From assembly GCF_050699915.1 (NCBI RefSeq), contig NZ_JBOHGA010000005.1, forward strand, positions 278 through 64,277: a DNA stretch of 64,000 nt. Direction: 5' to 3'. This stretch comes from Actinophytocola sp. Its GTDB lineage: Bacteria > Actinomycetota > Actinomycetes > Mycobacteriales > Pseudonocardiaceae. Each line of letters begins with the position of its first letter. Positions within the stretch are counted from its first letter, which is position 1. The notes under the pieces are model-generated. The model was given only the letters and a program-made list of their open reading frames with translations, made no database searches and was not told the origin of the DNA. Below, piece by piece: positions 10,866 to 16,130 of the stretch. A program made the translations under genes and the position numbers.

Positions 10866-11010
10866 TCGATGTCGCCGCTGTTCAGCAGCGCGCAGCGGGC
10901 GCCGGGGTGGTGCTGGGCCAGGTACGCCGCAGTCACCGCCGGCGCGGTGAGCACATGGTTGACGCCCACCCCGAAACCTCGATCAGCACCGCCTCGACCG
11001 TGCGGCTCAC
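10866..11010 (-). pseudogene. Deleted and frameshifted remnant of a HAD-IIA hydrolase (TIGR01458-like)
   Basis: GTG-SRTVEAVLIE (HAD motif-I-like start), then in another frame GFGVGVNHVLTAPAVTAAYLAQHHPGARCALLNSGDID, then runs into repeat sequence. Confidence 0.7.
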
Positions 11011-11067
11011 CGTAGTTGACGCCGCACGCGGTGAGAAATTACCGTCTGGTTATTGAACCTGGAGGTG

Positions 11068-11409
11068 ATGGACCTGACCGCGACTCTAGAGCGGCTGGAC
11101 GCCACGTTCGCCGCGCTGGCGGATCCGACCCGGCGCGCGATCCTCGCCCGGCTCGCGCGCGGCGAGGCGTCGGTCAAGGAGCTGGCCGAGCCGTTCGCGA
11201 TGACGCAGCCGGCCATCTCCAAGCACCTCAAGGTCCTCGAGCGCGCCGGCCTCGTCTCGCGCGGCCGCGACGCGCAGCGGCGGCCCTGCCGGCTGGAGGC
11301 CCAGCCCCTGCGCGACGCCGCCGAATGGCTCGTCGGGTACCGCCAGTTCTGGGCCGAGAGCTACGAGCGCCTCGAGTCGCTCCTCGGCGACCTGCGGGAG
11401 GAACCGTGA
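11068..11409 (+). CDS. ArsR/SmtB family transcriptional regulator
   Basis: FAALADPTRRAIL, MTQPAISKHLKVLERAGLV; GGAGG upstream. Confidence 0.92.
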   Translation: MDLTATLERLDATFAALADPTRRAILARLARGEASVKELAEPFAMTQPAISKHLKVLERAGLVSRGRDAQRRPCRLEAQPLRDAAEWLVGYRQFWAESYERLESLLGDLREEP

Positions 11410-11894
11410 TCGTCAGCACCCCGAGCGACCGCGAGATCGCGCTCACCAAGGAGTTCGCCGCCCCGCGCCGGCTCGTGTTCGACGCGCACACCAGGCCCGA
11501 GCTGCTCAAGCGGTGGTTCGGCCCGCACGACTGGCGGCTCGTCGTCTGCGAGATCGACCTGCGCCCCGGCGGGACCTGGTACTACCTCATGCGCGGCCCG
11601 GGCGGCGCGGAGATGACCCTGCGCGGCACCTACCTGGAGATCGTCCACCCGGAGCGCATCGTCACCACGGAGTCCAATGTGGACTGCGACGCCCGCGCCG
11701 AGCACGAGTCGCTCGCCACCGTGGTCCTCGTCGAGCACGGCGGGCGCACCACGCTGACCAACACCGTTCGCTTCCCCAGCAAGGAGATCCGCGACGCCGT
11801 GCTCGAGTCCGGGATGGCGCGCGGGGTGGGGGAGGGCTTCGACCGCCTCGCCGACCTGCTGGCTACGAGCCGGGAGTCGCCGGCAGACCGATGA
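11406..11894 (+). CDS. SRPBCC/AHSA1-like protein
   Basis: DREIALTKEFAAPRRLVFDAHT, WFGP, DLRPGG; GTGA overlap with ArsR, a common pairing. Confidence 0.9.
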   Translation: MIVSTPSDREIALTKEFAAPRRLVFDAHTRPELLKRWFGPHDWRLVVCEIDLRPGGTWYYLMRGPGGAEMTLRGTYLEIVHPERIVTTESNVDCDARAEHESLATVVLVEHGGRTTLTNTVRFPSKEIRDAVLESGMARGVGEGFDRLADLLATSRESPADR

Positions 11895-12576
11895 TCCCGA
11901 GCGCGGTCAGCGCGTCGAGCAGGTCGGCGACGTCGTGGTCGTCCAGCGACTCGCGGATGTGCTGCCACAGCATCAGGTTCGTCGCCGCCCAGCGGGAGTA
12001 GGCGGCCGCCGCGTCCGGGTTGTAGAAGTAGTAGCCGTCGTCGTGCACGGACTGCTGCTCGCCGACGATCTTGTCGGCGAGCTCCCGCAAGGTGATGCCG
12101 TTCTCCTGCAGGTACCTGTGCGACAGCATCACCGGGGTCACCGGCAGCGCCTTGAACAGCGTGTCGGCGTCTGAGAGCGCCTGTGCCTCCACCGAGATGC
12201 GCGGTCCGCGGTTGGCCATCTCCGCCTCGATCACGATGTCGTCGATCCATCGCGCGGTGGCCGGCCCGATACCGGCGCGGGCGAGCACGTCGAGTCGCAG
12301 CCGCTCGCCGGCCGACGCGGCGGAGTTGCGCCGCACGAGGTAGTTGACGTCGTGCACGAGGGCGGCCGTCTCCACGACGCTGACTTCGGCGCCGTTGGCC
12401 CGGGCGAAGTGCACGGCCTTGGCCCGGACGAAGCTCACGTGGTGCCAGCCGTGGAAGGGCAGGCGCTGCGCGTAGCGCGCGCACAGCCGGCGGACCTGCA
12501 TGTCGACCGACGCCAGCACCCCAGGCGGAACGGCCGGGACGGCCGTCCGTACCGGTACGGCGTTCTCGGTGTGCAT
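11863..12576 (-). CDS. HD-domain metal-dependent phosphohydrolase
   Basis: FHGWHH, AALVHDV and ALSDAD motifs; GGAGG RBS before ATG. Confidence 0.8.
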   Translation of the reverse strand: MHTENAVPVRTAVPAVPPGVLASVDMQVRRLCARYAQRLPFHGWHHVSFVRAKAVHFARANGAEVSVVETAALVHDVNYLVRRNSAASAGERLRLDVLARAGIGPATARWIDDIVIEAEMANRGPRISVEAQALSDADTLFKALPVTPVMLSHRYLQENGITLRELADKIVGEQQSVHDDGYYFYNPDAAAAYSRWAATNLMLWQHIRESLDDHDVADLLDALTALGIIGLPATPGS

Positions 12577-12585
12577 CCAGCCTCC

Positions 12586-12615
12586 CCAGCACCCCGCCCA
12601 CCGACGGGGTGCTGG
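12586..12615. other. Perfect 11-bp hairpin immediately 5' of the HD gene RBS
   Basis: ccagcaccccg-N8-cggggtgctgg. Confidence 0.65.
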
Positions 12616-12708
12616 ATGATGGTAGACGCCGCGTGCGGCCCATGTCTGCTGTCGGAGTTCCTCCAGGTGGCTGAATGCGGAATGGGTCAGGGAATGGTCA
12701 CGCTCGGT

Positions 12709-13347
12709 TCACAGGCGGCTCGCCAGTTTCTCCAGCCGACTCTCGACCGGGACGTGGCGCTGGCTCTCGTGGGTGTCGGGGTCGTAGGACAGGCTCCACG
12801 GCGTCACCTCGCGGGACTTCACGAGGAACGTCATGGTGCCGTCCGCGGCGCGGGGGATCCGGTGGAAGTCCGACGCGAGCAGGAAGGCGGACGCGCCGAC
12901 CGGACACGGCGTGGCGGTCACCAGCTCCGCCGACCGGACCAGCTCGGTGCCCGGGTTGATCGTCGCGGCGTAGCGTTCGTGCAGGTAGCCGCCGCGCAGG
13001 ATCGTCGTGCAGAAGTGGTAGCGGTGGTTGTGCACGGAGTCGGCGTAGCCCACCCGCCAGTCCCGCTGCTCCTTGTACTCGTGCAGCCAGAACGTGAACG
13101 GCTCGTCCGCCACGTCGCGCAGACACCAGGCGAAGTGGGTCGTCGTCTCGCGCGACCGTCTGATGACCGCCGCGGCCTGCTCGTCGGGTAACTCCAGCAG
13201 GTGGTGGCGCAAGCTGGCGCGAAGCCCGGGCCGCTCGGCCCAGACCTCGAACCACTTGTCGACGTTGTCCCAGCGCTGGGACAGGTCGAACTCGGCCGAT
13301 CGCAGCTGCTCGGCCAGCTCGCTCAGGGCGGAGACCCTGTTGGGCAC
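12709..13347 (-). CDS. Cupin-fold protein, cysteine-dioxygenase-like (HxH...H)
   Basis: SVHNHRYHFCTTILRGGYLHERY and SDFHRI motifs; starts 6 nt after the upstream stop. Confidence 0.7.
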   Translation of the reverse strand: MPNRVSALSELAEQLRSAEFDLSQRWDNVDKWFEVWAERPGLRASLRHHLLELPDEQAAAVIRRSRETTTHFAWCLRDVADEPFTFWLHEYKEQRDWRVGYADSVHNHRYHFCTTILRGGYLHERYAATINPGTELVRSAELVTATPCPVGASAFLLASDFHRIPRAADGTMTFLVKSREVTPWSLSYDPDTHESQRHVPVESRLEKLASRL

Positions 13348-13353
13348 GAGATA

Positions 13354-14355
13354 TCAGCTCCCCAACTCGGCGGTGACGGAGAACTCCCGGAGGAAGTTGT
13401 AGAACTCGGCGTTCAGCTCGAGGAACTGGTCCTCGGACAGCGGCGTGTTGGTGATCTTCTGGAACTGCTCGATGAAGTCCTTCCGCGAGGTGTCCGGCGT
13501 GATCACCAGGTGGTGCGCGTGCGGCGAGGCGGAGATGCGGGTGAACTCGGCGCGCTCCATGTTGTAGATGAACGAGCCCTCGGAGAAGCGCAGCGTGCGC
13601 GGGAACTCGTTGCTCGCCCGCGCGTCGCTGAAGAGCGTGACCCAGACGCTCTCGTCGAAGATCTCCAGCCGGTCGGTCGGCGGGTCGGAGATCACCGTGA
13701 CCTCCATCCGGGTGCAGCGGCTGCGCGCGAGGTACAGGCCGACCAGCCCGATGCGGATCTCGTCGTGCAGCCGGGAGTGGATGGTGTCGAAGTCGACGTC
13801 CGCCGCCGAATGCCTGATCAGGTATCGGGCCCGTCCGCTGATCCCGCTCAAGTTCCCCGGATCCGCGACCACCGCGCGGAACTCCCACTCCGCCTTGGAC
13901 AGCAGCAGCCGCGCGGCCGCGTGCCGGCCGGAGAACCCGCGGAACAGGTACTGCCGGGTGCCCTGCAGGTCCTGCATCATCAGCCGGTTGAAGGCCGGGT
14001 CGGGTTCCGCCGTTGGCTCGAAGATGTGAGTGGGGAAGAACTCGCGGTTCATCGAGCGGTACTCGGATGCCAGGTCGTGCAGCGCCTGGCGGCTCTCGTC
14101 GATGAGCGGGGTCAGCATCGCGCGCTGGGTGGCGGTGGCCGTGATGAGGGTCTGCCCGAAGCCGACGATCGCCGACACCAGGGTGCCGGTGGATACGGCG
14201 GTGAGCAGGTTCCTGCCCGTACCGGGTGCCATGCCGCTGGTGGCGATCATCGCCGCGCCCGAAATCACCAACAAGATCAGGAGGAGGAGGCCGGTTCTGG
14301 TCCAGAAGATCTCTTGAATCGGGTTCTTGCGGAGGCCCTTGGCTTCCGCGGGCAA
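13354..14355 (-). CDS. Hypothetical 2-TM protein with a cytoplasmic DUF5919/PLD-like domain
   Basis: Two N-terminal hydrophobic segments, then YLFRGFSGR, RAVVADP, PTDRLEIFDESVWV, FPRTLRF, EFTRI. In-frame TTG at 14355 has an AAGGAGGTGA SD (the ORF track starts at GTG 14379). Confidence 0.7.
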   Translation of the reverse strand: MPAEAKGLRKNPIQEIFWTRTGLLLLILLVISGAAMIATSGMAPGTGRNLLTAVSTGTLVSAIVGFGQTLITATATQRAMLTPLIDESRQALHDLASEYRSMNREFFPTHIFEPTAEPDPAFNRLMMQDLQGTRQYLFRGFSGRHAAARLLLSKAEWEFRAVVADPGNLSGISGRARYLIRHSAADVDFDTIHSRLHDEIRIGLVGLYLARSRCTRMEVTVISDPPTDRLEIFDESVWVTLFSDARASNEFPRTLRFSEGSFIYNMERAEFTRISASPHAHHLVITPDTSRKDFIEQFQKITNTPLSEDQFLELNAEFYNFLREFSVTAELGS

Positions 14356-14530
14356 GTAATTCACCTCCTTGGGCGACACTCGATCGGCCGAATGCTCTGA
14401 GTAAATGATCGAGCGCGGGGAGTTACTCTACCCCTGGGGACAATTGTGAGAAATAGGCGAAACGAGTGACCAGCACGGTTACCGATAGCCGCCGTTCGGC
14501 GCCGGGACGCGCCCCTTAAGCTCGCGAACC

Positions 14531-15139
14531 ATGCGCAACGTGAGCAAGGTCCTCCTGGCGGTGGCCGCCGCGGTGAGCCTCACCGGGTGTGTCGCCGACG
14601 AGCAGGCCTCCAGTGAGCCGCCCGGGGACACCGTGAGCTTCCCGCCGCCGAGCACCGAGGAGCCGGCGCCGCCGGAGTCGGAGACCAGCGCGCCGCCGAG
14701 CGACGACGCGAGCACCGCGGTGGAGTGCACCGCGAAGGACATCGAGGTGACCGGCGGGGCGAACGCCCACCCGACGATCACCCTGCCGAAGAACTGCTCC
14801 GCGCCCACCAAGCTGATCGTCGAGGACCTGCAGCCGGGCACCGGCCCGGAGGCCGCCTCGGGTGCCAAGATGCAGGCTCACTACGCGCTGTCCGCGTGGT
14901 CGAGTGGACAGGAGCTGGAGACCTCCTACCCGCCGTCGGGCCAGGGCCCGCTGGACATCCCGACCGTCGGCGAGGGGCTCATCGAGGCGTGGAATCAGGG
15001 CCTGGTGGGCATGAAGCAGGGTGGCCGGCGGCTGATCGTCGCGCCGCCGGAGACCGCCTACGGCGGGCAGCAGGGCCACCAGCTGGCGAACGAGACCCTG
15101 GTGTTCGTCATCGACGCCGTGAAGGTGACCGCCGCCTAG
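14531..15139 (+). CDS. FKBP-type peptidyl-prolyl isomerase lipoprotein
   Basis: Lipobox LTGC, Pro/Ser linker, LIEAWNQGLVGMKQGGRRLIVAPPETAYG, LVFVID. Confidence 0.88.
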   Translation: MRNVSKVLLAVAAAVSLTGCVADEQASSEPPGDTVSFPPPSTEEPAPPESETSAPPSDDASTAVECTAKDIEVTGGANAHPTITLPKNCSAPTKLIVEDLQPGTGPEAASGAKMQAHYALSAWSSGQELETSYPPSGQGPLDIPTVGEGLIEAWNQGLVGMKQGGRRLIVAPPETAYGGQQGHQLANETLVFVIDAVKVTAA

Positions 15140-16130
15140 CTCCGGGCCGGCCGGCGGGTCCGGGGATGAGCAGCAGCTTCCCGGTGGTCCGCCGGCCTTC
15201 GAGGTCCTCGTGGGCCTTGCGGGCGTCGGCGAGCGGATAGCGGCCGCCGATCCGCACGTCGAGGCGACCGCCGGTGATCGCGGAGAACAGCTCCTCGCAG
15301 CGCCAGCGAAACTCTTCTGGCGTCGCGAGGTGGTGCCCGAGCGTGGGCCGGGTGAGGAACACCGAACCGGCCGCGTTCAGCCGCTGCGGGTCCACCGGTG
15401 GCACCGGGCCGCTGGACGCGCCGAACAGCACCAGCATGCCGCGCCGGGCGAGGCAGGCGAGGCTGCGGTCGAACGTGTCCTTGCCGACGCCGTCGTAGAC
15501 CGCCGCGACACCCACGCCGCCGGTGATCCGCTCGACCTCCTCGGCGAAGTCGTTCTCGGTGTAGCGGACGACCTCGTCCGCGCCGGCGCCGCGGGCGAGC
15601 TCCTCCTTCTCGGCGGTGGACACCGTCGCGATCACCTTGCCGCCGCGGGACTTCGCGGTCTGGACGAGCAGCAGCCCGACTCCGCCCGCGGCGGCGTGGA
15701 TCAGCACCGTGTCGCCCGGCTTCACGGGGTAGGTGGACGTCACGAGGTAGTGGGCGGTGAGCCCCTGCAGCATCGACGCCGCGGCGATCTCGTCGGAGAC
15801 GCCGTCCGGGACGGCGAACGCCGAATGGGCCGGCACGATCGCCCGCTGCGCGTAGGACCCCGCCACCTCCGCCCAGGCGACGCGGTCGCCGGCGGCGAAC
15901 CCGGTGACCTCCGGGCCGACCGCGGCGACCACGCCCGCGCCCTCGTTGCCCGGCGTGAACGGCAGGTCCTTCGGGTACAGACCGCGCCGGTGATAGGTGT
16001 CGATGTAGTTGACGCCGGCCGCGGCGACATCCACCAGCAGCTCACCCGTGCCGGGCTCCGGCACGTCGATCCGGGCGAGCTCGAGCACCTCCGGTCCGCC
16101 GGTGGCGCGTACCACGACCGCGTCGACCAC
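15108..16130 (-). CDS. qor: NADPH:quinone oxidoreductase (zeta-crystallin family)
   Basis: GVNYIDTYHRRG, LQGLTAHYL, HAAAGGVG, VYDGVGKDTF, TTGKLLL. Confidence 0.93.
   Translation of the reverse strand: MVDAVVVRATGGPEVLELARIDVPEPGTGELLVDVAAAGVNYIDTYHRRGLYPKDLPFTPGNEGAGVVAAVGPEVTGFAAGDRVAWAEVAGSYAQRAIVPAHSAFAVPDGVSDEIAAASMLQGLTAHYLVTSTYPVKPGDTVLIHAAAGGVGLLLVQTAKSRGGKVIATVSTAEKEELARGAGADEVVRYTENDFAEEVERITGGVGVAAVYDGVGKDTFDRSLACLARRGMLVLFGASSGPVPPVDPQRLNAAGSVFLTRPTLGHHLATPEEFRWRCEELFSAITGGRLDVRIGGRYPLADARKAHEDLEGRRTTGKLLLIPGPAGRPGARRRSPSRRR

What the first reader, a model, noticed from the sequence alone, without database searches (positions are those of the whole stretch)
11863..14355. Candidate undescribed system: 2-TM/DUF5919-like protein + CDO-like cupin + HD hydrolase
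Seen: three co-oriented minus-strand genes in a variable slot between ctaB and qor. The first two are 6 nt apart, the first has an AAGGAGGTGA SD, and the upstream region and first gene look less GC-rich than the backbone by eye. Established: 2-TM proteins with a ligand-binding domain are typical effectors in nucleotide-signal immune systems (CBASS, Pycsar), and HD enzymes make or break nucleotide signals. Inference: the cupin and HD produce or turn over a small-molecule or nucleotide signal read by the membrane protein, possibly an anti-phage or conflict module. I do not recognise this combination as a named system.
Basis: partly seen in the sequence, partly recalled or inferred. Interest (0 to 1): 0.78.

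Follow-up and report, generated by a model that had tools for sequence, protein, structure and literature searches.

The report
Conserved membrane, cupin, HD gene trio
Three neighbouring genes (a two-helix membrane protein of an undescribed family, a three-histidine cupin distantly like cysteine dioxygenase, and an HD nucleotide phosphohydrolase) form a strictly conserved, vertically inherited unit in Actinophytocola and related soil actinomycetes; its function is unknown, and it looks like a fixed chromosomal relative of mobile modules rather than an active phage-defence island.

Summary
The three minus-strand genes are real: TM2 13354-14355, cupin 12709-13347, HD 11863-12576. TM2 and cupin lie 6 nt apart, and an AAGGAGGTGA ribosome-binding site precedes a TTG start. 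The host is Actinophytocola, not Streptomyces.

The trio is not variable. TM2 is in 22 of 23 genomes of the genus, and presence is all-or-none by genus across the family. The order TM2, cupin, HD holds in 79 of 80 species loci and survives where the flanks differ. Third-position GC matches the neighbours, so codon usage is native.

- **TM2:** no Pfam, NCBIfam, PADLOC or PDB match, and DUF5919 is not detected.
- **Cupin:** a rare family with an invariant His-x-His...His triad and weak but consistent similarity to cysteine dioxygenase.
- **HD:** a YpgQ-type mononuclear H..HD..D enzyme.

Distant TM2 relatives pair instead with Nudix or HAD hydrolases. Some sit on low-GC islands, on a pSAM2-type integrative element, or beside TIR-WD40 giants. 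This gives partial support for a conflict-system ancestry.

Best reading (about 45%): a fixed module that binds and turns over a phosphate-bearing small molecule at the membrane. A defence role is about 20%. I also found a conserved TM2 leader and a hairpin that sequesters the HD ribosome-binding site and start codon.

The genome search and the look-up of sequencing runs closed mid-session.

The parts
13354..14355 (-). TM2 gene: 333-aa protein with an N-terminal hairpin of two hydrophobic helices (about residues 15-45 and 50-73) and a roughly 250-residue cytoplasmic alpha/beta domain rich in conserved Arg. Undescribed family.
   Evidence: ORF and TTG start. Start and SD conserved in relatives. 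No Pfam/NCBIfam/PADLOC/PHROG/PDB match. Family-wide invariant residues P108 N123 F138 G140 R149 P166 R211 R229 P252 F257 S261 Y264. Hydropathy and positive-inside N-terminus. AF2 pLDDT 62.
12709..13347 (-). Cupin gene: 212-aa soluble protein with an N-terminal helical part and a 3-His cupin core (H106, H108, H162). Remote relative of thiol dioxygenases.
   Evidence: 6 nt after the TM2 stop. H106 H108 G119 H162 S185 are invariant across 68 diverse relatives. Profile against PDB: the top 19 hits are all cysteine dioxygenase type 1, E 0.008-0.3, with the three His aligned. PHROG 4786 'cysteine dioxygenase' E 1.2e-5. CDO_I and Cupin_2 hit a few members weakly.
11863..12576 (-). HD gene: 237-aa HD-domain phosphohydrolase, YpgQ/YedJ-like, with the mononuclear H..HD..D motif (H42/H46, H75-D76, D138).
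   Evidence: Invariant columns. Profile against PDB: 3djb 5.4e-7, YpgQ 5dqv 2.9e-5, 2pjq, 3dto. Weak PF01966 and HDIG hits. Relatives are named 'HD family phosphohydrolase' by their sources.
14361..14370 (-). Shine-Dalgarno AAGGAGGTGA of TM2
   Evidence: Read directly. GGAGGTG is conserved 5-9 nt before the start in relatives.
14425..14430 (-). Putative -10 box TAGAGT (consensus GCGTA[G/A/C]AGT) of the TM2 promoter
   Evidence: Conserved in position and sequence across Actinophytocola, Lentzea, Amycolatopsis and Actinokineospora. It fits the actinobacterial TANNNT -10 (own knowledge). No mapped transcription start.
14376..14416 (-). Conserved hairpin in the TM2 5' leader (GCGCUCGAUC...GAUCGAGUGU), preceded by a conserved ACUCC that could pair with the SD
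   Evidence: 80% of cells are paired, against 34-42% with slid partners. Covarying pairs: 15-52 (AU17/GU12/GC9) and 21-46 (UA17/AU9). RNAalifold keeps only a 5-bp core. The single-sequence z-score is not significant. No Rfam match.
12574..12624 (-). Conserved TACCAT box followed by a stable hairpin whose 3' arm contains the SD (GGAGG) and start codon of the HD gene
   Evidence: Present in all genera examined. The apical stem differs in sequence and length but pairing is kept. MFE z-scores are -3.7 to -6.2 in 8 of 9 diverse examples; window copy -33.5 kcal/mol, z -4.4. At least 3 of 4 SD bases are paired in 37 of 49 distinct sequences.

Best explanation
The three genes are one functional module, fixed in the chromosome of a sub-clade of Pseudonocardiaceae. 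It works on a phosphate-bearing, probably nucleotide-derived, small molecule at the cytoplasmic face of the membrane. TM2 is anchored by a two-helix hairpin and exposes an Arg/Ser/Tyr-lined alpha/beta domain that binds this molecule (inferred). The cupin is probably translationally coupled to TM2, and so probably made in step with it. It uses a 3-His metal centre, by analogy Fe(II) and O2, to modify the molecule or a thiol-containing precursor (inferred). The HD enzyme hydrolyses a phosphoanhydride or phosphoester of the molecule and so turns it over (inferred from its YpgQ-type site). Its translation is held back by a hairpin that buries its ribosome-binding site and start codon. Shown: gene structure, strict co-inheritance, native codon usage, intact metal ligands, conserved cis elements, and replacement of HD by Nudix or HAD in relatives. 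Inferred: the ligand, the chemistry and the physiological output. The module probably descends from mobile two- or three-gene cassettes still seen as low-GC islands in other actinomycetes. Here it behaves like a housekeeping or physiological signalling unit, not a mobile defence island.
For: Co-inheritance: TM2 is in 22/23 genomes of the genus and 117/301 of the family, all-or-none by genus. The cupin is single-copy and adjacent to TM2 in every genome hit. The order TM2-cupin-HD is the same in 79/80 species loci. The block is kept where flanks differ and in other families at 35-53% identity. The 6-nt TM2-cupin gap occurs in 42/51 loci. Native: GC3 0.945-0.953 matches the neighbours, and the flanks are housekeeping genes. 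Regulation: promoter and leader are conserved across genera, and a hairpin sequesters the HD RBS. Chemistry: the 3-His triad is invariant in 68 diverse cupins and aligns to CDO H86/H88/H140. The HD carries H..HD..D with YpgQ-family PDB hits. YpgQ is a Mn-dependent (d)NTP pyrophosphohydrolase and PenF a nucleotidase of the same fold (PMC8177086, PMC11592144). Partner swapping: distant TM2 relatives are coupled to Nudix (L031, L036, L130) or HAD (L037-L039, L131, L132) instead of HD. That makes three unrelated phosphohydrolase folds. TM2 conserves six Arg plus Ser, Tyr and Asn and no obvious catalytic dyad.
Against: No ligand, activity or phenotype is known. Both AlphaFold models were poor (pLDDT 62 and 50) and Foldseek gave nothing significant, so the TM2 domain fold is unassigned. 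The CDO similarity is marginal: hhalign to this genome's own CDO_I proteins gave probability 0.6-3.9%, and the Ser-His-Tyr residues of CDO are not conserved. The HD has a 132-nt gap and a possible promoter of its own, so co-transcription is unproven. Relatives on mobile, low-GC islands and beside a PDC-S07-like Nudix or TIR-WD40 proteins point towards a conflict role, which this reading plays down.
Confidence: 0.45

Rival explanations
1. The trio is an anti-phage or abortive-infection (or toxin-antitoxin-like) system that happens to be fixed in these genera. TM2 would be a membrane-disrupting effector triggered by a nucleotide-like ligand. HD (or Nudix/HAD in relatives) would keep the ligand low in uninfected cells, and the cupin would make or destroy the trigger.
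For: The architecture, a 2-TM hairpin plus a cytoplasmic ligand-type domain, resembles the membrane effectors of CBASS, Pycsar and Thoeris (own knowledge). A TM2 paralogue with a Nudix forms GC 0.44 cargo between tRNA-Ala and the integrase/RepSA of a pSAM2-type element, in a genome with GC3 0.95. That Nudix and the one in L031 match the PADLOC candidate PDC-S07 (E 2.8e-14 and 2e-13). HAD-TM2 pairs lie beside TIR-NA-iREase-WD40 giants in five loci. A TM2-cupin-FkbM island has GC3 0.56-0.60 against 0.96 for its flank. Tight translational control of HD fits a dosage-sensitive partner.
Against: The window trio gives no PADLOC hit even at E<=1. It is core and single-copy, with identity tracking taxonomy and native GC3. 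That is unlike the patchy, mobile distribution typical of defence genes. No signal synthase belongs to the block: an adenylate cyclase neighbours it only in Amycolatopsis nigrescens. There are no TM2 relatives in IMG/VR. The PDC systems are themselves untested candidates (bioRxiv 10.1101/2024.01.29.577857).
Confidence: 0.22
2. The trio is a membrane-associated tailoring or salvage module for a cell-envelope or secondary-metabolite precursor, such as a nucleotide-sugar, a phospho-sugar or a thiol conjugate like mycothiol. TM2 would be an unrecognised enzyme or scaffold rather than a sensor.
For: The partners seen across the family are classic small-molecule tailoring enzymes: HD, Nudix, HAD phosphatase, an FkbM-type and a class I methyltransferase, and a dioxygenase-like cupin. 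The fixed chromosomal location lies among respiratory and redox housekeeping genes. The cupin's nearest relatives oxidise thiols.
Against: TM2 has no recognisable catalytic motif or transferase fold. No biosynthetic core genes are conserved next to the trio, and the flanks vary outside the tkt-ctaB...qor region. The CDO substrate-binding residues are not conserved.
Confidence: 0.18
3. The genes are functionally unrelated neighbours, kept together only by a conserved chromosomal backbone.
For: In many genera the trio lies in the same conserved tkt-ctaB...qor-ctaA region. The HD has a 132-nt gap and possibly its own promoter.
Against: The block stays intact and collinear in loci with entirely different flanks (L017, L021, L025-L030, L125) and in other families. 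Flanking genes such as FKBP, ArsR and AHSA1 come and go while the trio does not. The 6-nt TM2-cupin spacing is conserved.
Confidence: 0.04

Closest known systems
YpgQ / YedJ / PenF subgroup of HD-domain phosphohydrolases (PDB 5dqv, 3djb, 2pjq, 3dto)
   Same: About 210-240 aa stand-alone HD protein with the mononuclear H..HD..D metal motif. The profile matches these structures over residues 40-140. YpgQ hydrolyses (d)NTPs and PenF hydrolyses nucleoside monophosphates.
   Different: The relationship is only remote (E 5e-7 to 2e-3 with a profile; the single sequence falls below the Pfam HD cut-off). The C-terminal half is unmatched and the substrate is unknown. Unlike its relatives, it is embedded in a fixed trio and preceded by an RBS-sequestering hairpin.
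Thiol dioxygenases of the cupin superfamily (cysteine dioxygenase type 1, 3-mercaptopropionate dioxygenase; Pfam CDO_I)
   Same: The His-x-His...His triad aligns with CDO H86/H88/H140. The spacing HxH(x)4C(x)6G in this copy mirrors the mammalian CDO motif. All of the best PDB hits and one PHROG hit are CDOs.
   Different: It falls below every curated threshold. Cys113 is not conserved across the family. The CDO Ser153-His155-Tyr157 positions align to T173/V/K177. It has an extra N-terminal helical region and its own conserved SRET.TH.KW motif. hhalign to the genome's own CDO_I proteins does not support homology.
Two-TM effector proteins of nucleotide-signalling defence systems (CBASS, Pycsar and Thoeris membrane effectors; from own knowledge)
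   Same: N-terminal two-helix membrane hairpin plus a cytoplasmic domain that looks like a ligand binder. Association with nucleotide hydrolases, and relatives on mobile islands.
   Different: There is no cyclase, CD-NTase or TIR partner in the trio and no PADLOC model hit. The C-terminal domain matches no SAVED, SLOG, Macro or cNMP-binding model. The module is core and vertically inherited.
PADLOC phage-defence candidate PDC-S07 (single-gene Nudix candidate, untested)
   Same: The Nudix proteins coupled to distant TM2 relatives (L036, L031) match it over nearly full length.
   Different: It concerns relatives only; the window has an HD in place of a Nudix. PDC-S07 is defined as a single gene without a TM2 partner, and its defence activity is untested.
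DUF5919 (PF19319) / PLD-like degenerate domains
   Same: The predicted alternating beta-alpha secondary structure of the TM2 soluble domain fits in outline. The weak top Foldseek hits include PLD-fold proteins (TrmBL2, SauUSI, MITD1), but all with probability below 0.1.
   Different: No HMM hit to PF19319 for any of 38 family members, nor anywhere in the genome. There is no HxK motif.

Membership tests
HD superfamily, mononuclear YpgQ-type phosphohydrolase | Metal ligands H...HD...D conserved | tested here: met
   H42/H45/H46, H75-D76 and D136/D138 are invariant in 25 relatives. They align to the HD motifs of 3djb, 5dqv and 2pjq.
HD superfamily, mononuclear YpgQ-type phosphohydrolase | Score above the Pfam PF01966 gathering cut-off (22 bits) | tested here: not met
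   13.8 bits, E 0.075 for the window protein. One relative (P0351) carries a precomputed PF01966 hit. The profile against PDB reaches E 5.4e-7.
Dinuclear HD oxygenases and phosphodiesterases (PhnZ/MIOX, HD-GYP) | Extended H...HD...H...H...D motif with two extra His between HD and the last D | tested here: not met
   No invariant His lies between D76 and D138; only E117 and E119 do. The motif definition is from PMC8177086. TIGR03276 Phn-HD scores 12.5 bits against a cut-off of 214.6.
Cysteine dioxygenase type I (PF05995) | 3-His metal triad in a cupin fold | tested here: met
   H106, H108 and H162 are invariant in 68 diverse relatives. They align to the CDO 'IHDH' and 'LHRVEN' motifs.
Cysteine dioxygenase type I (PF05995) | Significant match to the family model | tested here: not met
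   No hit for the window protein. 2 of 68 relatives hit, best E 0.0028. PF05995 finds three other genes in this genome but not this one. hhalign probability is 0.6-3.9%.
Cysteine dioxygenase type I (PF05995) | Ser-His-Tyr catalytic triad and Tyr157 (Cys-Tyr cross-link partner) | tested here: not met
   The aligned positions are T173, V and K177. Cys113 is present here but not conserved in the family.
DUF5919 (PF19319) | Match to the family HMM | tested here: not met
   Absent from all hits at E<=10 for 34 members and at E<=0.01 for 4 distant members. No match anywhere in the genome at E<=10.
CBASS / Pycsar / Thoeris | A signal-producing enzyme (CD-NTase, PycC cyclase or TIR) encoded with the effector | tested here: not met
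   The trio holds only TM2, cupin and HD. A class III cyclase neighbours it in one species only. A TIR protein occurs only beside distant HAD-TM2 paralogues.
CBASS / Pycsar / Thoeris | Match of any component to curated defence models | tested here: not met
   PADLOC gives 0 families at E<=1 for all three proteins.
Mobile defence island | Patchy distribution, atypical composition, and mobile-element or defence neighbours | tested here: not met
   22/23 genomes of the genus and all-or-none by genus. GC3 equals the neighbours. The flanks are tkt, ctaB, FKBP, qor, desaturase and ctaA. These features are met only for distant relatives.
Operon (single transcription unit) | Co-transcription of the three genes | not testable with these tools
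   No terminator-like site was found. But a conserved TACCAT box and hairpin lie before HD.

The most novel reading that the evidence does not exclude
TM2 founds a new family of membrane effector/receptor proteins for a nucleotide-derived signal. Its partners are interchangeable signal-degrading hydrolases (HD, Nudix, HAD) and a thiol-dioxygenase-like cupin that makes or inactivates the ligand. The canonical trio would then be a defence or programmed-cell-death module domesticated as a core gene set in a whole clade of filamentous actinomycetes, controlled by two new cis-regulatory RNA structures.
Probability: 0.2. Interest if true: 0.8.

Novelty: new variant of a known kind. Interest (0 to 1): 0.5.

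Why it matters
Two of the three proteins belong to families with no curated model. Yet they are kept together in the same order in at least 79 species and are likely present in about 277. This marks a real, untested piece of actinomycete biology.

The membrane protein recurs with phosphohydrolases of three unrelated folds, and sometimes on mobile low-GC islands or beside TIR-STAND proteins. That gives a concrete, testable lead on what it binds. It also offers a possible example of a conflict-type cassette becoming a fixed chromosomal function. The hairpin that buries the HD start site is a simple, conserved translational control element that can be tested directly.

Tried and rejected
1. Pfam, NCBIfam, PADLOC and PHROG scans gave nothing for TM2 and only sub-threshold hits for the cupin and HD.
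2. AlphaFold2 on alignments of close relatives gave low confidence (TM2 pLDDT 62, cupin 50).
3. Foldseek of the TM2 model against PDB found no match at E<=0.001. I did not run a fold search on the cupin model because it was too poor.
4. hhalign of the cupin family against this genome's own CDO_I proteins gave no support. The CDO link rests on hmmsearch against PDB and on PHROG only.
5. PF19319 (DUF5919) has no hit in the genome.
7. An Rfam scan of 11000-15500 found no family.
8. Weak TM2 matches inside roughly 730-aa proteins were rejected as compositional. The one I inspected (L040) reads, by eye and not confirmed by Pfam, like a PAS-GGDEF-EAL-type signalling protein.
9. The adenylate cyclase next to the trio in Amycolatopsis nigrescens is not conserved elsewhere.
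10. No TM2 relative was found in viral contigs, and only three weak cupin matches in jumbo-phage contigs.
11. The sigma-70 consensus scan found no promoter. The candidate -10 boxes came from comparative alignment instead.
12. An exact look-up of the window protein in the contig index found nothing on record.


Full report
**1. What is there**

The region holds three minus-strand ORFs.
- TM2 is best started at the TTG at 14355. AAGGAGGTGA (14361-14370) lies 5 nt upstream. In related genomes this SD and a start codon 5-9 nt downstream are conserved, while the GTG at 14379 that the ORF listing picked is not.
- The cupin GTG at 13347 follows the TM2 stop by 6 nt. The same 6-nt gap is found in 42 of 51 related loci that I could measure.
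- The HD ATG at 12576 follows the cupin stop by 132 nt.
- The HD 3' end overlaps the 3' end of a convergent AHSA1/SRPBCC gene, which follows an ArsR-type regulator.
- The wider flanks are transketolase, ctaB (UbiA), an FKBP lipoprotein, qor, a fatty-acid desaturase, ctaA and an ABC transporter.
- Names attached to close homologues show the organism is an Actinophytocola (Pseudonocardiaceae), not a Streptomyces.

**2. Composition**

However, third-position GC is 0.949, 0.953 and 0.945 for TM2, cupin and HD, against 0.92-0.97 for the neighbours. The dip comes from first-position GC (amino-acid composition) and from intergenic DNA. It is not a sign of recent acquisition.

**3. Distribution and linkage**

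- TM2 is present in 22 of 23 genomes of the genus; the one miss is 73% complete.
- It is present in 117 of 301 sampled genomes of the family, in an all-or-none pattern by genus: 13/13, 14/14, 14/14 and 13/13 against 0/14, 0/14 and 0/12.
- Identity falls with taxonomic distance: 78-91% within the genus and 54-67% in other genera.
- The cupin is single-copy and always lies beside TM2.
- In 20 loci from different genera, tblastn found the three genes adjacent and co-oriented in 18. One locus was cut by a contig end, and in one the HD lay 2.9 kb away. This includes loci where the tkt/ctaB/FKBP/qor flanks are absent, and a genome of another family at 38/37/53% identity.
- A scan of one genome per species found 277 stretches that encode a relative of the cupin, each from a species-representative genome. 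Of the best 80 (Actinophytocola, Actinokineospora, Lentzea, Amycolatopsis and one Jatrophihabitantaceae MAG), 79 have TM2, cupin and HD in that order on one strand. The remaining locus is truncated 153 nt before the cupin.

The 'variable slot' description does not hold for the trio. Only the ArsR/AHSA1 pair and FKBP come and go.

**4. The proteins**

*TM2*
- It has a strongly hydrophobic helix (about residues 15-45) and a second, weaker one (about 50-73). The second is clearly hydrophobic in distant relatives.
- The N-terminus is K/R-rich, which places the C-terminal domain of roughly 250 residues in the cytoplasm.
- It matches no Pfam, NCBIfam, PADLOC or PHROG model and no PDB sequence. DUF5919 in particular is not detected.
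- Across relatives down to 20% identity, the invariant residues are P108, N123, F138, G140, R149, P166, R211, R229, P252, F257, S261 and Y264. S142, C214, D234, R256, R268 and R273 are nearly invariant.
- That pattern suits binding of an anionic or phosphate-bearing ligand better than it suits catalysis.
- AlphaFold gave an alternating beta/alpha domain at low confidence (pLDDT 62). Foldseek found nothing significant.

*Cupin*
- It belongs to a rare family: 194 representatives at E<=1e-3 among 1.84 billion proteins, nearly all 200-225 aa.
- In 68 diverse members only H106, H108, G119, H162 and S185 are invariant. E67, T70, H71, W74, K92, R109 and Y110 are nearly so.
- A profile of these members finds cysteine dioxygenase type 1 as its 19 best PDB hits (E 0.008-0.3), followed by 3-mercaptopropionate dioxygenase. 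The three His align to the CDO iron ligands.
- PHROG 4786 'cysteine dioxygenase' hits at E 1.2e-5. CDO_I and Cupin_2 hit a few members weakly.
- hhalign against this genome's three genuine CDO_I proteins gives no support. The CDO Ser-His-Tyr residues are not kept.
- It is therefore a remote, CDO-like 3-His cupin, not a member of the CDO family.

*HD*
- H42/H45/H46, H75-D76 and D136/D138 are invariant.
- A profile matches the YpgQ group of structures: 3djb 5.4e-7, 5dqv 2.9e-5, 2pjq 1.1e-4 and 3dto 1.8e-3.
- That group uses a mononuclear H..HD..D site. YpgQ is a Mn-dependent (d)NTP pyrophosphohydrolase and PenF a nucleoside-monophosphatase (PMC8177086, PMC11592144).
- The two extra His of dinuclear HD oxygenases and phosphodiesterases are absent.

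**5. Relatives with other partners**

Distant TM2 homologues (20-38% identity) reveal a wider family.
- L031 and the metagenomic contig L130 read TM2, Nudix, cupin.
- L036 reads TM2, Nudix with no cupin.
- L033 reads TM2, cupin, FkbM-type methyltransferase.
- L037-L039, L131 and L132 read HAD phosphatase, TM2 (overlapping genes). These pairs lie next to a class I methyltransferase and a giant protein of about 1,950 aa. In L038, Pfam confirms TIR, NA-iREase and WD40 domains in that giant. In the others I read the same kind of protein by eye.

The TM2 protein is thus repeatedly coupled to phosphohydrolases of three unrelated folds: HD, Nudix and HAD. This is the strongest clue that its ligand or substrate carries a phosphoanhydride or phosphoester, most simply a nucleotide derivative.

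Several of these relatives are clearly foreign to their genomes.
- The L036 pair has GC 0.44 and GC3 0.41 in a genome with GC3 0.95. It lies between tRNA-Ala and the integrase and RepSA genes of a pSAM2-type integrative element.
- The L033 triple has GC3 0.56-0.60 against 0.96 next door.
- The two Nudix partners match the PADLOC candidate PDC-S07. That candidate belongs to a set of 145 untested systems proposed by guilt-by-embedding.
- No TM2 relative was found in viral contigs.

**6. Regulation**

The TM2 upstream region is conserved across genera.
- A box GCGTA[G/A/C]AGT (window 14425-14430) is followed by a leader: AACUCC..CGC.CUYGAUC...GCAUUCGUCCG.UCGGGU...AGGAGGUG.
- A hairpin (window 14376-14416) is 80% paired across 40 sequences, against 34-42% for shifted controls, with some covariation.
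- RNAalifold keeps only its 5-bp core, and the single-sequence energy is unremarkable. I rate this element as likely but not proven.

The element before HD is much clearer.
- A conserved (T)TACCAT box is followed by a hairpin whose 3' arm contains the HD SD and start codon: CAUC...GGAGG..GAUG.
- The apical stem differs completely between genera but always pairs.
- Energies are -16 to -51 kcal/mol, with z-scores of -3.7 to -6.2 in 8 of 9 diverse examples.
- HD translation from a read-through transcript should therefore be blocked.
- One untested possibility is that TACCAT is a -10 box whose transcript starts inside the 5' arm and so leaves the ribosome-binding site open.
- No Rfam family matches.

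**7. Interpretation**

The evidence shows a fixed, natively expressed three-gene module. Its core, TM2 plus cupin, is probably translationally coupled, and its third member is a nucleotide-type phosphohydrolase.

I commit, at about 45%, to a physiological role. TM2 binds a phosphate-bearing small molecule at the inner face of the membrane. The cupin modifies that molecule or a precursor with a 3-His metal centre. The HD turns it over.

Two alternatives remain live. A defence or abortive-infection reading gets about 22%: it gains support from the mobile relatives but is contradicted by the core, vertical, housekeeping-embedded nature of this locus and by the absence of any signal synthase. A membrane-associated tailoring or salvage reading gets about 18%. 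Chance neighbourhood is essentially excluded.

**8. Novelty and limits**

The gene combination matches no named system, and two of the families have no curated model. The parts nevertheless belong to known superfamilies, and the logic resembles known pairings of a membrane effector with a nucleotide hydrolase. I therefore rate it a new variant of a known kind, of moderate interest.

- The genome search closed before a DUF5919 comparison and a family-wide census could be run.
- The look-up of sequencing runs closed, so transcription could not be examined.
- The scan had not noted this module on other DNA.

Noticed in passing
window 12574-12624 (-): A conserved TACCAT box is followed by a very stable hairpin (-33.5 kcal/mol, z -4.4). 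The hairpin buries the SD and ATG of the HD gene. The same design, with unrelated apical stems, occurs in Lentzea, Amycolatopsis, Actinokineospora and other Actinophytocola. This is a candidate translational control element with no Rfam match.
   Followed up: partly
window 14356-14430 (-): The TM2 promoter-like box (TAGAGT) and a roughly 70-nt leader are conserved across genera. The leader has a hairpin (14376-14416), a conserved loop GCAUUCG, and an ACUCC that could pair with the SD. Covariation support is moderate.
   Followed up: partly
L036 9042-14513: In another Pseudonocardiaceae genome a second, distant TM2 copy sits with a Nudix hydrolase (PADLOC PDC-S07-like). Together they form a GC 0.44 cargo between tRNA-Ala and the integrase and RepSA genes of a pSAM2-type integrative element.
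   Followed up: partly
L037, L038 (9275-17701), L039, L131, L132: This is a conserved cluster of a HAD phosphatase overlapping a TM2-like gene, beside a class I methyltransferase and a giant protein of about 1,950 aa. Pfam confirms TIR, NA-iREase and WD40 domains in the L038 giant; the giants in the other loci were read by eye. The cluster occurs in at least two genera and two soil metagenomes, and looks like a STAND-type conflict locus.
   Followed up: partly
L033 8556-11389; L031 748-2983; L130 450-2560: Other architectures of the family exist: TM2-cupin-FkbM methyltransferase on a GC3 0.56-0.60 island, and TM2-Nudix-cupin triples.
   Followed up: partly
L125 7182-8800 (Amycolatopsis nigrescens): A universal stress protein and a class III adenylate/guanylate cyclase lie directly upstream of the trio and are co-oriented with it. 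This was not seen next to the trio in any other locus examined.
   Followed up: yes
window 11053-11894 (+): An ArsR-type regulator and an AHSA1/SRPBCC protein overlap each other by 10 nt. They converge on the HD gene with a 32-nt 3' overlap. The pair is absent from this position in other genera, so it is the variable part of the slot.
   Followed up: partly
own genome contigs C202, C156, C128 (L042-L044): The genome has three genuine CDO_I-family proteins elsewhere. By eye, one (L044) is followed by what looks like a rhodanese-like gene. The trio's cupin is therefore not the organism's ordinary cysteine dioxygenase.
   Followed up: partly
L126-L128 (IMG/VR contigs of 78-369 kb): Three large viral contigs encode weak (22-29% identity) matches to the HNHRY core of the cupin. 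These are probably the phage 'cysteine dioxygenase' PHROG 4786 type.
   Followed up: no
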